A stretch of DNA of 64,000 nucleotides from the human T2T-CHM13v2.0 reference genome, Homo sapiens, in assembly GCF_009914755.1 (NCBI RefSeq), contig NC_060939.1; one strand, 5' to 3'. Below, piece by piece: positions 20,957 through 30,930 of the stretch. The notes below the pieces were generated by a model. It saw nothing but the letters and a program-made list of their open reading frames with translations. It made no database searches and was not told the DNA's origin. The first letter of the stretch is position 1. Each line of letters opens with the position of its first letter. A program made the position numbers and the translations under genes.

Positions 20957-21285
20957 GGCCAGGTGTGGTGGCTCATGCCTGTAATCCCAACACTTTGGGA
21001 GGCCGAGGCAGGTGGATCACGAGGTCAGGAGATCAAGACCATCCTGGCTAACACGGTGAAACCCCGTCTCTACTAAAAAAACCACAAAAAATTAGCCAGG
21101 CGTGGTGGTGGGCGCCTGTGGTCCCAGCTCCCCTGGGGAGGCTGAGGTAGGAGAATGGCGTGAACCTGGGAGGCAGAGCTTGCAGTGAGCTGAGATCATG
21201 CCACTGCACTCCAGGCTGGGCGACAGAGTCAGACTCTGTCTCAAAAAAAACAAAAAAAAAAAAAAACAAAAAAAAGAAAAGAAAA
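20957..21285 (+). mobile_element. AluY
   Basis: gatcacgaggtcaggagatc.agaccatcctggctaacacgg and gaatggcgtgaacc; 16-bp TSD aagaaatttacatcca. Confidence 0.93.
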
Positions 21286-21334
21286 AAGAAATTTACATCC
21301 AATATTTCAATTTATAATCACAGTGTTGCTGTGA

Positions 21335-21399
21335 GATGGCTAATCATCTGCATCTTACAGATTTTTAAAAAGTGATTCACAAAAAGGCTAAGTAGATTA
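21335..21399. mobile_element. MIR, first half (split by the L1 insertion)
   Basis: catctgcatcttacagat...aaaaggctaagtagatt resembles MIR core cccattttacagatgaggaaactgaggctcagagaggttaagtgactt. Confidence 0.6.
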
Positions 21400-22383
21400 T
21401 TTTAAATTTCAACTTTATTTTAGATACAGGGGATACATATGCAGATTTGTTACATGGGTATATTACAACTAGATAGTGAGCATAATACCCCATATGTAGT
21501 TTTTTTAACCCACGCCCCACCTCCCACCCACCCCCTCTAGTAGTCCATGGTGTCTGTTGTTCCTCTGTTTATGTTACTATGTGGCCAATCTTTAGCTCCT
21601 ACTTACAAGTGAGAACTTGAAGTATTCGGTTTTTTGTTTCTACATTAATTTGCTTAGAATTATGTGTGGTCTCTAGCTCCATCCATGTTGCTGCAAAGGA
21701 CATGATTTCATTCTATTTTATGGCTGCATAGTATTTCATGGTGATACGTACCACATTTTCTTTACTCCACCGTTAATAGGTATCTAGGTTGATTCCATGT
21801 CTTTGCTATTGTGAATAGTGCCACAATGAGCATACAAGTGCATGTGGGTTTTTTTTTTTTTTGGTATAATGATCGGTTTTTCTTTGGGTATATATGCAGT
21901 AATGGGATTGATGGGTCGAATGATAGCTCTACCTTAAGTTCTTTGAGAAATCTCTGAACTGATTTCCATAGTGGCCAAACTAGTTTACATTCCCATCAAC
22001 AGTGTATAAGCATTCCCTTTCCTCTGCAACCTCACCAGCATCTGTTGTCTGTTGACTTTTTAATAACTGTCATTCTGACTGGTGTGAGATGATATCTCAT
22101 GATTTTTATTTGAATTTCTCTAATGATTACTGATGATAAGCATTTTTTCATATATTTCTTGGCTGCTAGTATGTCTTCTTTCAAAAAGTGTCTGTTCATG
22201 TCCTTTGCCCATTTTTAATGGGGTTATTTGGTTTTTGCTTGTTGATTTGTTTAAGTTCCTTATAGTTTCTGGATATTAGACCTTTGTCAGATGCACAGGT
22301 TGTGAATATTTTCTCTCATTCTGTAGGTTGTCTTTTTACTCTGTTGATAGTTTCTTTTGCTGTGCAGAAGCTCGTTAGCTTAA

Positions 22384-23886
<1,503 letters not shown>

Positions 23887-25049
23887 TGTCACTTCTTGTT
23901 TTTGTTGCAATTGCTTTTGGGGACTTGGCCAAAAATTCTTTGCCAAAGCAGATGTTGACAAGGGTACTTCTTAAGTTTTCCTCTAGGATTTTTATAGTTT
24001 GAGATCTTATATTTACGCCTTTAATCCATTTTGAGTTGGTTTTTGTATATGGTGAAAGGTAAGGTTCTGGTTTCATTCTTCAGCATATGGCTAGCCAGTT
24101 TATCCAGAAACATTTATTAAATAAGGAGTCCTTTCCCCATTGCTGGTTTTTGCTGGCGTTGTTGAAGAGCAGATGGTTGTAGGGGTGCAGTTTTATTTCT
24201 GAGTTTTGTATTTCGTTTCATTGGTCTGTGTGTCATTTTCTATACCAGTGCCATGCTGTTTTGGTTACTGTAGCCTTATAGTATAGTGTGAAATTGGGTC
24301 ATGTGATGTTCTTCTGTTCTTTTTGCTTAAAATTGCCTTGGCTATGTGGGTTCTTTTTTGATTCCGTATGAATTTTAGAATAGTTTTTCTAATTCTGTGA
24401 AGAAGGACACTGGTAGTTTGATAGGAATAGCATTCAATCTTTAAATTGCTTTGAGCAGTATGGCCATTTAAACAATATTGATTCTTCCAGTCCATGAGCA
24501 TGGAATATTTTTCCACTTATTTGTTTCATTTCTGATTTCTTTCAGCAGTATTTTGTAGTTCTCCTTGTAGAGATCTTTCACCTTCTTCGTTATTCATTTT
24601 CTTTGTGGCTATTACAAGTGGGATTGTGTTCTTGATTTGACACTCAGCCTGGACATTATTGGTGTATAGAAATGCTACTGATTTTTGTACATTGATTTTG
24701 TATCCTGAAACCTTGCTAAAGTTGTTTATCAGTTCTAGCAGACTTTTGTTGGAGTCTAGGGTTTTCTAAGTATAGATTCATATTGACAACGAAGAGAGAT
24801 AGTTTGACTTCTTCTTTTCCTATTTGTATGCTTTTCATTTTTTTCTTTTGCCTGATTGCTCTGGCTAGAACTTCCAGTACTATGTTGAATAGGAGTGGTG
24901 AGAGTGGGCATCCTTGTCTTATTCCAATCCTCAAGGGGAATGGTTCCAGCTTTTTCCCATTCAGTATGATGTTGGCTGTGGGTTTTCATAGATGGCTCTT
25001 ATTATTTTGAGTTATCTTCCTTAGATGCCTAGTGTGTTGAGAGATTTTT

Positions 25050-25692
<643 letters not shown>

Positions 25693-26355
25693 ATGTTTAG
25701 GTGTTTATTATTATTATTGTTATTAAGGAATGTTGAATTTTATCAGAAGTTTTTTTCTGTGTCCATTGAGATGATCATATGGTTTTTGCTTTTAATTCTG
25801 TTTATATGGTAAATCACATTTATTGATTTATGTATATTGAACCAATCTTGCATCCTAGGAATAAAGCCTACTTGATCGTGGTGAATTAACATTTTGATAT
25901 GCTGGATTCAGTTTGTTGAGGATTTTTACATCTATGTTCATTAGGAATATTGGAGTGGGGTTTTCTTACTTCATTGTGTCTCTGCCACATTTTGGTATTA
26001 GACTGATTGTGGCTTCATAGGATAAGTTAGGGAGGAGTGCCTCCTCCTCAATTTTTTGGAATAGTTTCGGTAGGATTGATACCAGTTCTTTGTACATCTG
26101 GCAGAATTTGGCTGTGAATCCATCTTGTCTAGGGCTTTTTTTTTTGGTTGACAGGTTTCTTATTACTGATTCAATTTCAGTGCTTGATATTGGTCTATTC
26201 AGAGTTTCAATATCTTCCTGATTCAATCTTTGGAGATTGTGTGTTTCCAGGAATTTATCTATTTCCTCCAGATTTTCTAATATGTTTGCATAGATTTGTT
26301 CACAGTATTCTCTGAAGAATGTTTGTTTGTCTGTGGGATCAGTTATAATACCATC

Positions 26356-26786
<431 letters not shown>

Positions 26787-29700
26787 TAAATATAGCTAGC
26801 TGTCTATCAATCTTATTTATTTTCTTGAAAAAACAATTCTTGGTTTCACTGATCTTTTGTTTGGATTTTTGCACCTCAATTTCATTCAGTTCTTCTCTAA
26901 TTCTATTTATATCTTTCCTTCTGTTAGTGTTGGGGTTAGTTTGTTCTTTTTTTGTTCTAGTTTCTTTAGGTGCAAAGGCAAATTGTTAATTTAACATCTT
27001 TTTAATTTCTCGATGAAGGTGTTTAGGGCTCTAAACTTTCCTCCTAACACTACTTTAGCTGCATCCCAGAGATTTTGGTAAGTTGTATCCCTATTTTCAT
27101 TAATTTAAAAGAATATTTTAAAATTTCTGCCTTAATTTCTGTGCTCATCCAGGAGTTATTCAGAAGCAAGTTGTTTAATTTCCATGCATTTATGTAGTTT
27201 TGAGAAAGCTTCTTGATACTGATTTCTATTTTTATTGCACTGTGGTTTGATAATGTGCTTGGTATGAGTTCAATAACTTATTTGAAGTTATTGAGACTTG
27301 CTTTAGGACTTAACATGTGGTCTATGTTAGAATATGTTTCATGTGCAGATGAGAAGAATATATATTCCGTGATTGTTGTGTGGAGTTCTATAGATGTCTA
27401 GTAGGTCCAACTGTTCAAGTGCTGAGTTTAAGTCCAGAGTGTCTTCGTTGGTTTTCTGCCTTGATGATCTGTCTAACATTGTCAGTGGGGTGCTGATGTC
27501 TCTCACTATTATTGTATGGTTGTCTAAGTCTTTTTGTAGGCCAAGAAGGACTTGTTTTATGAATCTGGGTGCTCCAATGTTGGGTGCAGTATATATTTAG
27601 GATAGTTAAATTTTCTTGTTGGATTGTATCCTTTATTATTATATAATGCCCTTCATTGTCACTTTAACTTTTATTGGTTTAAAGTCTGTTTTAAAAATAG
27701 TGACTCCTGTTCTTTTTTGTTTTCCATTTGCATAGTATATCTTTCTCTATCCCTTTATTTTAAGTCTATGGGAGCTACGTGAAATAGGTCTCTTGAAGAT
27801 AATAAATGGTTGGGTCTTGTCTTTTTATCCAGCTTGCCCCTCTGTGCCTTTTAAGTGGGAACATTTAGTCCATTTACATTTACAAGGTTAGTATTGATAT
27901 GCGTGATTTTGATCCTGTCCTCATGTTTTGATCCTGTCCTCATGTCCTCATATAGCTGATTGTTATATAGATTTGATTGTGTAGTTGCTTTATAGTGCCT
28001 GTGGGCTATGTGCTTAAGTGTGCATTTTGTTTTTTTTTTGTTTGTTTGTTTGTTTTTGTGGCAGTAGGTATTGTTCTTTTGATTCCATGTTTAGCATTCC
28101 CTTAAAAATCTCTTGTAAGGCTTGTCTAGTTAAAACAAATTCCATCAGCATTTGCTTGCCTGAGAAGGATTTTAGCTTTCTTTCACTTATGAAACCTAGT
28201 TTGCTTTACTTATAAAGCTTAGTTAGCTATATGCTTAAGTGTGTTTTCTGTGGTAGCAGGTGTCATCCTTTTAATTCCATGTTTAGCACTCCCATAAGGA
28301 CTTCTTGTAAGGCTGGTCTAGTTTAAACAAATTCATTAAGCATTTGCTAGTCTGAGAATGATTTTATTTTTCCTTCACTTATGAAGTTTAGTTTGGCAGG
28401 ATATGAAATTCTTGGTTGGAATTTCTTTGCTTTGAAAATGCTGAAAATAGGCCCCCAATCTCTTCTGACTTGTAAGGTTTCTGCTGAGAGGTCTGCTGCT
28501 GCCTAATAGGGTTCTTTCAGTTTATGATTTACCCTACTCTCTAATTGCCTTTAAGATTTTTTTTTTGTTTGCATTGACCTTGGTGAGTCTGGTGACTATG
28601 TGTCTTGGTGATGGTTGTCTTGTGTAGTATCTAGCCAGGGTTCTCTATATTTCTCATATTTGCATATCAACCTCTAGCAAAATTAGGGAAATTTTTGGGG
28701 ACTATATCCTCAAATGTATTTTCCAAGGTGCTTATTCTCTCTCCTTTTCTCTCAGGAATGCCAATGAATTGTAGATTTGATCTCTTTACATACTTTCATA
28801 ATTTTTAGAGATTTTGTTCATTTTTCTTAATTCTTTTTTCTTTCCCTTTATCTGATTGAGTGGATTCAAGGAACCAGTCTTAGAGCTCTGAGATTCTTTC
28901 CTCAGCTTGATCTATTCTGCTGTTGATATTTCTGATTGTAGTATGAAATTTTTGTAGTGAGTCTTTCAGCTCTAGAAGTTCAGTTTGGTTCTTTCTTAAA
29001 GTGGCTATTTTGTCTTTCAGCTCTTGTAACATTTTACTGGATTCCCTGGATTGATTGGGCTCCAACTTTCTCAGGAATCTCAGTGAGCTTCCTTGCTATC
29101 CAGATTCTGAATTCTATGTCTGTCATTTCAGTCATTTCAGACTGAGCAAAAAACCATTGCTAGGGAACTAGTGGACTCATTTGGAGATAAGGGGACACTG
29201 GCTTTTTAAATTGCCAGAGTTGTAACTGGTTCTTTCCCATCTGCAAGGGTTAGTGTTCCTTTAACTGTGGTGTAAGTTGATTATACTTAGTTGGCTTTGT
29301 TTCTGGATGTTTTCAGAGGATCAGAGCTCTGCACAGGATCTTTATGCTTGGGTGAATTCTTGTGTTTGGTTTCACAGATGCATATATTAGTAGGATAATT
29401 TTTGGTGTTGCAGCTTAGGCTGTGATCCAGTAGATGGTGTGGAAGAGTGATGGCCAATAGCTAGGCTGATAGCCAGTCACACTACTCTTTTGTATCTCCT
29501 CATGTTGGCAGGTGTGCTCTGCAGTCGGGGGTGGAGACAAATGGCCCCTTCACCAGGTCTGCTCATGAGCCTTGGGGAGACCCTTTTGATCACCAGTTAT
29601 GTGCCCGTGTTTCTTTTGTTAGGTGTTCCAGGATGCAGGGCCCCCTCTGGGAAAGGCTGTAACAGGAAGATGTTCTTCACCCTTTCTGGATTGACCCTGT

Positions 29701-30595
29701 GGAGGGAGGCATAGCTTGTTCCCACCCTGGCCCGGGAACCCATTTGTCTCACCCCTTGCCACACTCTGAGGGTGGGGGATCCTCCCTCACTCAAGTGCCA
29801 ACCACAGATCCTGGCTTTGTATTCCTGAGCTGCTGTACTGTGGCCCTGGGGCACCAGAACATCCCATGGCTCTGTCTGAATCCATGGTTGGATTCTGGCT
29901 GCACTGGGGATTCTATGTGCTCCAGATCACCAGGAAAGTACTCAGGTGGAGCAATGCGCTCAGGCTGGGCCAAGGAGGCTGTGCTGTGCACCTGCTCCTG
30001 CAGGGTGGCTAGGCATGGGCCCTGGGAAGGGCTAGCATGTAGGAAGGCTTGCAGAACAGATGTGCATCATTCCCAGGGAAGCCAGCCCTGCTCTCTCCTG
30101 GCTGGAAGGTCAGCTGGGGCCAGCGCCTCCCAGAGGGGAATAGAGAGTCCTGGGGGATGACCATCTGTGGCTGCTCTCTGCTGGAGCTGTCCTGTGCACA
30201 CAAACTCCTCAGCTCCATGCTGTCTGAAGGCCTGTCTTTGCCTGTTCCCTGGGGAGATCCCCCTCCAGCTCCCACGTCCTTGTGTGATGCAGGGTCCCCT
30301 GTAGCTAGAATCCCAGAGGCTGGTGGCAAGAGTGAGGCATCCTTCAGTTCCCTCACTCACTGCTTTCCCAGGAGCTGTTTGGGCCAGGAACTAGCCTAAT
30401 AGCGTTTGGGTACCCCTGCAGGGTTCCCAGCTTCTTCCCTCTTCAGCCTCAGCTTCAGCATCACTTCTACCCACCCCTGGCTTTTTCTTTTTGAAGAGCT
30501 ACCCAAATTATGGTGGCTTACTTGATAGTTTGGTCTCTCTCAGTGGGAGCAACACATCCTGGCTGCATGTAGTCGGCCATCTTGTTTCCGCCTCC

Positions 30596-30651
30596 TGCTG
30601 TCTTTGAGGAATGCTCAGCCACCATCCAGCTGGGCCACATCTGTCTGTCTT

Positions 30652-30683
<32 letters not shown>

Positions 30684-30863
30684 GAGGAAGACAGCAATGA
30701 TGAGGCTGCCTACCGAGCATTCATGAGGACCTCCTATGAGAAGAACCCAAAGCTGTTAGCATCCCTGGCTGCTGAATAGGTCTACTGTGCCTGGCACCCC
30801 AAGCAGCCCTCCTTACAGCCTTGCAGCCAAGCCTCTTCCAGCCTCCCTCCTCTCCACTGCATA
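30596..30863 (-). other. Non-L1 sequence enclosed within the L1 target-site duplication (putative 5' transduction)
   Basis: CTAAGTAGATT at 21388-21398 and 30864-30874; the two flanks rejoin into one MIR. Confidence 0.7.
30652..30680. repeat. (CAG)9 trinucleotide repeat followed by (GAG)2
   Basis: Read directly from sequence. Confidence 0.97.
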
Positions 30864-30930
30864 CTAAGTAGATTTCTTCAAGGTCAGGCATAGTAAATTG
30901 TTGGAGTGGGATTGACACCTAGGTCTACTT
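30864..30930. mobile_element. MIR, second half
   Basis: caaggtcaggcatagtaaattgttggagtgggattgacacctaggtct resembles MIR caaggtcacacagctagtaagtggcagagctgggatttgaacccaggtct. Confidence 0.6.

What the first reader, a model, noticed from the sequence alone, without database searches (positions are those of the whole stretch)
30596..30881. Ancient L1 5' transduction: ~270 bp of foreign, first-exon-like sequence carried in front of a full-length L1
Seen: the minus-strand L1 begins at ~30595 (GGAGGCGGAAACAAGATGGCCG). The duplicate of its 3' flank (CTAAGTAGATTattttAA, 21388-21405) occurs only at 30864-30881 (CTAAGTAGATTtcttcAA). Removing everything between the two copies rebuilds one continuous MIR, itself inside a continuous + strand L1M. 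So 30596-30863 arrived with the L1. On the L1 strand it reads ...GCAGTGGAGAGGAGGGAGGCTGGAAGAGG...CCTCCTCC(TGC)n TAAGACAGACAGATGTGGCCCAGCTGGATGGTGGCTGAG CATTCCTCAAAGACAGCA. It is GC-rich and TpG/CpA-rich. Established: L1 5' transductions arise when an upstream host promoter drives the source element, and they are much rarer than 3' transductions. Inference: this is a CpG-decayed CpG-island first exon of another gene, possibly spliced at ...GGCTGAG| to just upstream of the source L1. It would record which host promoter drove an old primate L1.
Basis: partly seen in the sequence, partly recalled or inferred. Interest (0 to 1): 0.85.

Follow-up and report, generated by a model that had tools for sequence, protein, structure and literature searches.

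The report
Ancient L1 carrying a spliced host leader
An old full-length L1 retrotransposon in an IL16 intron brought along about 265 bases copied from a spliced transcript that ran antisense through the CpG island of the testis gene NT5C1B on chromosome 2, which records the host promoter that once drove a source L1 that is no longer there.

Summary
A minus-strand full-length L1 (21406-30595) and 268 extra bases (30596-30863) lie between two copies of one target-site duplication (11 bases exact, 13 of 16).

The leader is not L1 sequence. None of 29 sibling L1 5' ends shares it.

It is made of two pieces from the + strand of chromosome 2, in order and in L1 sense.
- Piece 1 (30620-30860) copies C2:18616556-~18616770. 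This is the antisense of a coding exon and about 76 nt of the adjoining intron, inside an 800-bp CpG island of a cytosolic 5'-nucleotidase-I gene (NT5C1B by recall). Identity is 79%, and CpGs fall from 18 to 1.
- Piece 2 (30596-30619) copies C2:18621226-18621249, 4.45 kb downstream. It starts directly after a strong polypyrimidine-AG acceptor.

Chromosome 2 has no L1 after piece 2. It does have an endonuclease-like site with a 10-nt would-be duplication.

Best reading (0.65): a spliced 5' transduction from an antisense CpG-island transcript into a source L1 that has since been lost.

This kind is known: Law and Burns 2026 list 17 cases, and this one is not among them. It is a new member of that kind. 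Interest is moderate.

The parts
21388..21403 (.). Target-site duplication, copy next to the L1 3' end (16 nt; up to 18 nt if 21404-21405 are counted)
   Evidence: The exact 11-mer is shared only with 30864 in the window. The copies agree at 13 of 16 and 15 of 18 positions.
21406..30595 (-). Full-length old L1, decayed, 9190 bp including later insertions of short ~300-bp repeats (Alu by recall) at about 22388-22637, 25054-25695 and 26441-26792. The 3' end has an AATAAA signal, and only an A/T-rich remnant of a tail survives.
   Evidence: The 5' end is colinear with 29 of 29 sibling loci from 30595-30541 down to about 28700. The body is colinear with other L1s on chr2, for example window 21613-29236 against C2:18665052-18671003. 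Pfam RVT_1 was found in 1 of 16 minus-strand ORFs, at 24719-24985, E 4e-07. The 3' end was read.
30596..30619 (-). Leader piece 2: 24 nt copied from chr2 + strand, G000:C2:18621226-18621249. This is the stretch between a 3' splice site and the inferred insertion point of the lost source L1.
   Evidence: Identity is 19 of 24. The 19-nt core has 2 substitutions and is the only hit with 4 or fewer substitutions in 264,626 bases of loci, both strands. Of 1000 shuffled 19-mers, 1 found a hit that good in the 160 kb. AG with 15 of 18 pyrimidines lies directly upstream in chr2.
30620..30771 (-). Leader piece 1, exon-derived part: the reverse complement of the 3' part of a coding exon of the chr2 5'-nucleotidase-I gene (NT5C1B by recall). 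It includes a (CAG)9 run where the source has (CAG)5. On the window + strand it survives as a 41-codon open frame, 30654-30779.
   Evidence: DNA match. (frames); 12 of 18 residues identical, E 1e-06. The piece 1/piece 2 boundary is uncertain within 30614-30620.
30772..30860 (-). Leader piece 1, intron-derived part: the reverse complement of the first ~76 nt of the intron that follows that exon. It is colinear with the exon part, so it was copied from unspliced sequence as far as the sense gene is concerned.
   Evidence: The alignment runs without a break across the exon/intron border at L002:1576/1577.
30861..30863 (.). Three bases between the duplication and the start of chr2 homology. They are either untemplated or decayed homology.
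30864..30879 (.). Target-site duplication, copy beyond the leader. It is followed on the + strand by AA, which gives an endonuclease-like site TTCTTC/AA.

Best explanation
The leader is a spliced 5' transduction. In an early primate, a full-length L1 that no longer exists sat on the + strand of chromosome 2 at about C2:18621250. That is 4.7 kb from the CpG island covering a coding exon of the 5'-nucleotidase-I gene there (NT5C1B by recall; reported as highly expressed in testis).

A transcript started inside that CpG island at about C2:18616553-556 and ran antisense to the gene through ~76 nt of intron and ~140 nt of exon. It was spliced across 4.45 kb to an acceptor 24 nt upstream of the L1 and then read through the whole L1.

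The L1 machinery copied this RNA into an IL16 intron in one target-primed event. This produced: duplication, 3 nt, piece 1, piece 2, L1, duplication. The copy then lost its CpGs.

Shown: the two-piece origin, the order and strand of the pieces, the acceptor, the duplication, and the absence of the leader from sibling L1s. Inferred: the start site, the donor, and the lost source element.
For: - The leader lies inside the duplication, and there is no duplication at the L1 start.
- Of 29 sibling L1 5' ends, 0 carry it, and their upstream flanks are unrelated to each other apart from three duplicated loci.
- Genome-wide searches in both directions find only the window and C2:18616556-18616772. Identity is 71% by the search tool, and 176 of 223 ungapped columns in my alignment.
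- The source is a CpG island: L002:1301-2100 has GC 0.672 and CpG observed/expected 0.67. The source segment has 18 CpG and the leader has 1. Ten of 47 mismatches are CpG to TpG/CpA.
- The last 24 nt match C2:18621226-18621249 at 19 of 24, on the same strand and 4.45 kb downstream. Only 1 of 1000 shuffled 19-mers did as well in 160 kb. That chr2 stretch is unique in the genome by the tool.
- Piece 2 starts right after AG with 15 of 18 pyrimidines and T at -3. Sites that good occur once per ~1019 positions on that strand.
- Where piece 2 ends, chr2 continues with unrelated sequence. Ten nt before that point lies TTC/AAAG, an endonuclease-like site. Such variants are listed in Table S5 of Law and Burns.
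- The ages fit. The window L1's own branch is about 0.11 substitutions per site over its first 600 nt. Leader and source differ by 0.21 summed over both lineages.
- There is a precedent. RAP1GDS1 exons are spliced to a cryptic acceptor 15 bp upstream of an intronic L1PA2 (PMC13174262, passages).
Against: - No L1 stands at C2:18621250 today. No + strand L1 5' UTR of this type lies anywhere in C2:18556001-18716000. The source is therefore an assumption.
- At the gap-free junction the chr2 donor reads GC, not GT (gag|GCGGGG at L002:1716). The nearest GT (ggg|GTAGAT at L002:1721) requires a 5-nt deletion in the copy.
- No data here show an antisense start site at L002:~1501, or that such a transcript exists.
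- The would-be 10-nt duplication and endonuclease site at chr2 could be chance.
- In the published catalogue 15 of 17 leaders are sense to their gene. The two antisense ones were read as twin priming.
- The L1 poly(A) tail is not recognisable.
Confidence: 0.65

Rival explanations
1. The same spliced antisense chr2 transcript was involved, but it was joined to an L1 RNA in trans, with no L1 ever at chr2. The joining could be trans-splicing, RNA ligation, or a reverse-transcriptase jump from the L1 RNA's 5' end to an internal point 24 nt into the transcript's second exon.
For: The chr2 site is empty and no source L1 lies within 160 kb. Law and Burns found no intronic L1 at 15 of 17 donor genes and raised trans mechanisms.
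Against: Nothing but an L1 insertion explains why the leader stops 24 nt into the exon, at a point preceded at 10 nt by an endonuclease-like site. There is no splice donor at the end of piece 2, where the sequence continues 'actgtt'. A low-abundance antisense RNA is an unlikely partner in trans.
Confidence: 0.2
2. Twin priming. The second DNA end at the IL16 target primed reverse transcription on a sense pre-mRNA of the 5'-nucleotidase gene. This would give an antisense-oriented piece, later joined to the finished L1 cDNA.
For: The leader is antisense to the gene and crosses an exon/intron border. Law and Burns favour twin priming for their two antisense mRNA chimeras. Their ANKAR row looks similar: exon plus 78 nt of intron, a full-length L1, and 12 unassigned nt.
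Against: The leader has two colinear pieces 4.45 kb apart, joined at a 3' splice site that exists only on the antisense strand. A sense pre-mRNA would not lose that stretch. The L1 is complete to its first bases, which twin priming does not require. No primer-template microhomology is seen at the duplication/leader junction.
Confidence: 0.05
3. DNA-level event. A fragment of chr2 DNA was captured as filler when the L1 5' end was joined. Alternatively, the leader was inserted before or after the L1, independently of it.
For: None specific. Filler DNA at repair junctions is known in general (recalled).
Against: The two pieces are joined at a splice acceptor, which points to RNA. The leader starts 3 nt from the duplication and ends at the first L1 base. 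The leader's divergence matches the L1's age.
Confidence: 0.05
4. The extra bases belong to the L1 subfamily's own, longer 5' UTR.
For: Old L1 families have varied 5' UTRs (recalled).
Against: None of the 29 sibling 5' ends extends into it. It is single-copy apart from its chr2 source.
Confidence: 0.01

Closest known systems
RAP1GDS1/L1PA2 promoter co-option (Law and Burns, Cell Genomics 2026, PMC13174262)
   Same: Host exons are spliced to a cryptic acceptor a few bases upstream of an L1 (15 bp there, 24 nt here). The spliced leader plus the L1 then retrotranspose with a target-site duplication and an endonuclease site.
   Different: There the source L1 still sits in the intron, the exons are sense first exons of the gene, the L1 is young (L1PA2), and there are two offspring. 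Here the source is gone, the transcript is antisense to the gene, the L1 is far older, and only one copy exists.
The 17 mRNA/lncRNA-L1 5' chimeras of Law and Burns 2026, Table S5
   Same: A unique non-repeat leader lies in front of a mostly full-length L1, inside the duplication. Most have no source L1 at the donor locus.
   Different: This locus is not among the 17 rows. I read all three parts of that file, and 'NT5C1B' has 0 occurrences in the 4 supplementary files held. Its only chr15 row is at 70.7 Mb in hg38. Fifteen of the 17 are sense to an annotated gene.
ANKAR/L1 chimera in that table
   Same: An antisense copy of an exon plus adjoining intron (78 nt), a full-length L1, and 12 nt between them called untemplated.
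   Different: There the 12 nt are unassigned and the authors lean towards twin priming. Here the corresponding 24 nt map 4.45 kb downstream, after a splice acceptor. That row may deserve the same check.
SVA 5' transductions, for example the MAST2 CpG-island exon in SVA_F1 (recalled; only the search listing was seen)
   Same: A host CpG-island exon is spliced onto the 5' end of a retrotransposon RNA and carried along.
   Different: In SVA the composite became a propagating subfamily. Here there are no progeny.
Classical unspliced L1 5' transduction
   Same: Transcription starts upstream of the element, and the leader lies inside the duplication. [quoted passage not shown]
   Different: Here the leader is not contiguous genomic flank. 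A 4.45-kb stretch is missing.

Membership tests
L1 5' transduction | Non-L1 sequence directly 5' of the L1 and inside the same target-site duplication | tested here: met
   The duplication is at 21388 and 30864 and the leader lies between it and the L1 start. There is no duplication at 30596.
L1 5' transduction | The leader maps to a unique locus elsewhere, in the same sense as the L1 | tested here: met
   only chr2 and the window match each other. Both pieces are on the chr2 + strand in L1 sense.
L1 5' transduction | A source L1 lies directly downstream of the leader's source locus | tested here: not met
   Chr2 continues with unrelated sequence after piece 2. No matching L1 5' UTR lies in C2:18556001-18716000. 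A lost, unfixed source is inferred.
L1 5' transduction | Hallmarks of target-primed reverse transcription: endonuclease site and poly(A) tail | tested here: inconclusive
   An endonuclease-like TTCTTC/AA is present at the target. Only an A/T-rich remnant follows the AATAAA signal.
Spliced host-exon/L1 chimera (cis-splicing type) | Leader pieces are colinear on one strand and joined at a 3' splice site | tested here: met
   Piece 2 starts after AG with 15 of 18 pyrimidines. Sites that good occur once per 1019 positions.
Spliced host-exon/L1 chimera (cis-splicing type) | A canonical GT donor at the end of the upstream piece | tested here: inconclusive
   GC at the gap-free junction (L002:1716). 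GT lies 5 nt further on (L002:1721) and needs a 5-nt deletion in the copy.
Spliced host-exon/L1 chimera (cis-splicing type) | The leader is sense to an annotated gene and includes its first exon | tested here: not met
   The leader is the reverse complement of a coding exon and its downstream intron. Whether an antisense transcript is annotated there could not be looked up.
CpG island (source of the leader) | At least 200 bp, GC at least 0.5, CpG observed/expected at least 0.6 (thresholds recalled) | tested here: met
   L002:1301-2100: 800 bp, GC 0.672, observed/expected 0.67.
Twin-priming chimera | One continuous piece copied from a sense RNA, in opposite orientation, with no splice signature in L1 sense | tested here: not met
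   There are two pieces 4.45 kb apart, joined at an acceptor on the L1-sense strand.
L1 subfamily 5' UTR | The sequence is shared by other copies of the subfamily | tested here: not met
   0 of 29 sibling loci. The subfamily name itself was not tested, because no Dfam or RepeatMasker is held.
Cytosolic 5'-nucleotidase I gene (NT5C1B) | The neighbouring exon encodes the family's domain | tested here: met
   L002:1151-1318 (minus strand) hits PF06189 at 1.2e-15, 57.6 bits against a cut-off of 28.2. The gene name is recalled from the chromosomal place, not returned by a tool.

The most novel reading that the evidence does not exclude
The CpG island over this 5'-nucleotidase exon has, or had, a germline-active antisense promoter that produces a spliced non-coding transcript with exactly this junction (C2:~18616770 to 18621226). 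It drove a short-lived L1 that left one offspring and then vanished. This would be a fossil of the route by which L1 lineages try out host CpG-island sequence as new 5' ends. The same reading may apply to the 'untemplated' linkers in published antisense chimeras such as ANKAR.
Probability: 0.3. Interest if true: 0.55.

Novelty: new member of a known kind. Interest (0 to 1): 0.45.

Why it matters
L1 5' transductions are rare. The first systematic catalogue has 17 cases, and only one source element in it is known. This is a further and much older case in which every base of the leader except three can be assigned.

It names the promoter region that drove a long-extinct source L1: the antisense side of a testis gene's CpG island. 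It also pins the empty site where that source should have been. That makes the 'lost source or trans joining' question testable in other primate genomes.

It also shows that short 'untemplated' linkers in such chimeras can be a second exon. This is a practical point for anyone re-reading the published cases. It has no known effect on IL16.

Tried and rejected
- MIR/L1M continuity of the flanks. Whole-genome search with the right flank, nhmmer with each flank, and nhmmer and blastn with an in-script empty-site join found only the window itself. The claim stays untested.
- Continuation of chr2 homology through the last 16 nt of the leader. This was rejected: 3565 of 5000 shuffles scored as well. 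That result led to the wider scan that found piece 2.
- An unspliced source L1 inside the exon. Rejected for the same reason.
- Twin priming was my leading idea after reading Law and Burns. I dropped it.
- Pfam on 16 minus-strand ORFs of the L1. Only one RVT_1 hit came back. A 71-aa ORF gave four sub-threshold coiled-coil-type hits, which I took as noise.
- A 9-nt word shared between the linker and the upstream flank of L013. I judged it chance, because it sits about 35 nt further from the L1 start and L013 is not a closer relative.
- Coordinate phrases in the supplements gave no occurrences. The tool may not match across ':', so I rely on the full read of file 4 and on the 'chr15' and 'NT5C1B' counts.
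- Searches for print mentions: 'NT5C1B'+'LINE-1'+'chimeric' gave 1 unrelated paper. 'NT5C1B'+'antisense'+'lncRNA' gave 2 papers, neither about this.

Full report
THE OBSERVATION

The window's minus strand carries an L1 whose first bases lie at 30595. Its 3' end, with an AATAAA signal, lies at 21406.

The word next to the 3' end (21388-21398) recurs exactly only at 30864-30874 in the 64-kb window. The two copies agree at 13 of 16 and 15 of 18 positions. On the + strand the far copy is followed by AA, giving TTCTTC/AA, an endonuclease-like target.

An exact 11-mer between the 40-nt flank and the 800 nt beyond the L1 arose in 36 of 2000 resamples. The word alone is therefore not overwhelming. What makes it convincing is that it ends 3 nt from the point where foreign homology begins. 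No alternative duplication adjoins 30596, where the longest shared word is 3 nt.

It rests on recall.

IS THE LEADER PART OF THE L1?

No. A genome search with the first 400 nt of the L1 plus 22 nt of leader gave 258 candidates. Of these, 40 were scored and 30 loci were returned, including the window itself.

In the 29 other loci:
- The match starts between window 30578 and 30596 in 25.
- It starts at 30604 in two copies that are duplicates of one insertion.
- Two copies are 5'-truncated.

Aligned with their flanks, the siblings become alike at the same point. Upstream of it they are unrelated, except for three sets of duplicated loci.

All 29 are colinear with the window L1 for up to 1.9 kb, at 68-74.5% identity. 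The body is colinear with other L1s fetched from chr2. One of 16 ORFs still hits RVT_1.

The element is therefore full-length, and the 268 bases are foreign.

WHERE THE LEADER COMES FROM: PIECE 1

The window's own assembly could be searched. The leader has two places in it: itself and G000:C2:18616556-18616772, + strand in L1 sense, at 71% identity and E 6e-25. The reciprocal search with the chr2 stretch again finds only these two.

My alignment has 176 matches, 47 mismatches and 26 gap columns. It spans window 30860-30612, so its last few columns run into piece 2. Ten mismatches are source-CpG to TpG/CpA. The source has 18 CpG (observed/expected 0.70) and the leader has 1.

The chr2 place lies in an 800-bp CpG island with GC 0.672 and observed/expected 0.67.

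On the chr2 minus strand it is a coding exon followed by a GT intron. The next exon hits Pfam 5'-nucleotidase PF06189 at 1.2e-15. From its place on chromosome 2 I take the gene to be NT5C1B; the name is recalled. A paper passage calls NT5C1B highly expressed in testis (PMC9498395).

So piece 1 (30620-30860) is the antisense of the 3' part of that exon plus about 76 nt of the following intron. The + strand frame 30654-30779 is its relic, with 12 of 18 residues identical.

WHERE THE LEADER COMES FROM: PIECE 2

The last 16-19 nt before the L1 did not continue the chr2 homology; 3565 of 5000 shuffles scored as well.

Scanning everything fetched (264,626 bases, both strands, up to 4 substitutions) gave one hit with 2 substitutions. 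It lies at C2:18621231-18621249, on the same strand, 4.46 kb downstream of piece 1.

Extended, 24 nt match at 19 of 24, which is the same identity as piece 1. Only 1 of 1000 shuffled 19-mers found so good a hit in the 160 kb. The chr2 stretch is unique in the genome by the tool.

In chr2 the 24 nt are directly preceded by AG, T at -3 and 15 of 18 pyrimidines. Sites that good occur once per 1019 positions on that strand.

The junction falls in three bases shared by both chr2 pieces.
- With the acceptor as read, the donor in today's sequence is GC (gag|GCGGGG).
- A GT lies 5 nt further on (ggg|GTAGAT) and would need a 5-nt deletion in the copy. The leader has several other indels, so this is not far-fetched.

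After the 24 nt, chr2 runs on with unrelated sequence and has no L1. Ten nt before that point stands TTC/AAAG, which would be an endonuclease site with a 10-nt duplication.

No + strand L1 5' UTR of this family lies in C2:18556001-18716000.

MECHANISM

The leader consists of two colinear same-strand pieces. A 4.45-kb stretch has been removed at an acceptor that exists only on the antisense strand. The leader ends where an L1 could have been inserted.

The economical reading has four steps:
- An antisense transcript started in the CpG island.
- It was spliced to a site 24 nt upstream of a source L1.
- It read through the whole L1.
- It was retrotransposed in cis.

The source was never fixed or was lost. 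Law and Burns consider the same for their cases.

The ages agree. The window L1's own branch is about 0.11 over its first 600 nt (24 siblings used; duplicates L014, L016, L015, L027 and truncated L022 were left out). Leader and source differ by 0.21 over two lineages.

The main rival is joining in trans to the same spliced RNA (0.2). Twin priming on sense pre-mRNA, which I favoured, does not explain the splice (0.05). DNA capture or independent insertion gets 0.05, and the subfamily's own 5' UTR about 0.01.

WHAT IS KNOWN

For Law and Burns I read:
- the bioRxiv version (10.1101/2025.02.02.635956): outline, one section and passages;
- the Cell Genomics 2026 version (PMC13174262): passages and the whole of supplementary file 4.

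They list 17 mRNA/lncRNA-L1 5' chimeras. Fifteen are sense and six end at annotated donors. One source is known: RAP1GDS1/L1PA2, with an acceptor 15 bp upstream of the L1.

This locus is not listed. 'NT5C1B' has 0 occurrences in the four supplementary files. All five 'chr15' strings in file 4 belong to a row at 70.7 Mb, whereas IL16 is near 81 Mb in hg38 by recall.

Their ANKAR row resembles this case (antisense exon plus intron, full-length L1, 12 unassigned nt) and might yield to the same downstream search. Two further literature searches found nothing on an NT5C1B/L1 chimera or an NT5C1B antisense RNA.

VERDICT

This is a new and unusually well-resolved member of a known, rare kind.

It has no progeny and no evident function at IL16.

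Still open:
- the subfamily name and an age in years;
- MIR continuity of the flanks;
- the empty site in other species;
- the donor;
- any evidence for the antisense RNA.

Noticed in passing
window 30654-30680 versus L002:1667-1683: The CAG run is 9 units in the retrotransposed copy and 5 in the coding exon of the source gene (a Gln stretch). The repeat has changed length in one lineage since the event.
   Followed up: no
window about 22388-22637, 25054-25695, 26441-26792: Short ~300-bp repeats (Alu by recall) were inserted into the L1 after its arrival. They were seen as many-copy hits to both strands of the chr2 region. They explain part of the element's 9.2-kb length. The remainder, about 7.9 kb, is still long for an L1 and was not dissected.
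   Followed up: partly
L013, L014, L016; L011, L015; L024, L027: Three sets of sibling L1 loci share their upstream flanks as well. They are duplicated copies of one insertion (segmental duplications: C2/C15/C15, C12/C12, and C24/C23), not independent insertions.
   Followed up: no
G000:C2:18609568-18613127 (L038-L039): A 5'-truncated + strand L1 with an inserted short repeat lies 3.4 kb upstream, on the + strand, of the leader's source. It is on the wrong side to be the source element.
   Followed up: partly
Table S5 of PMC13174262, ANKAR row (chr7:7388030-7394394 in hg38): This published antisense exon-plus-intron/L1 chimera has a 12-nt 'untemplated' linker. By analogy with this window, the linker may be a short second exon from downstream of the source.
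   Followed up: no
window 21000-21295: A + strand Alu-like element (by recall) with a long A-rich tail sits directly left of the flank that holds the 3' duplication copy.
   Followed up: no
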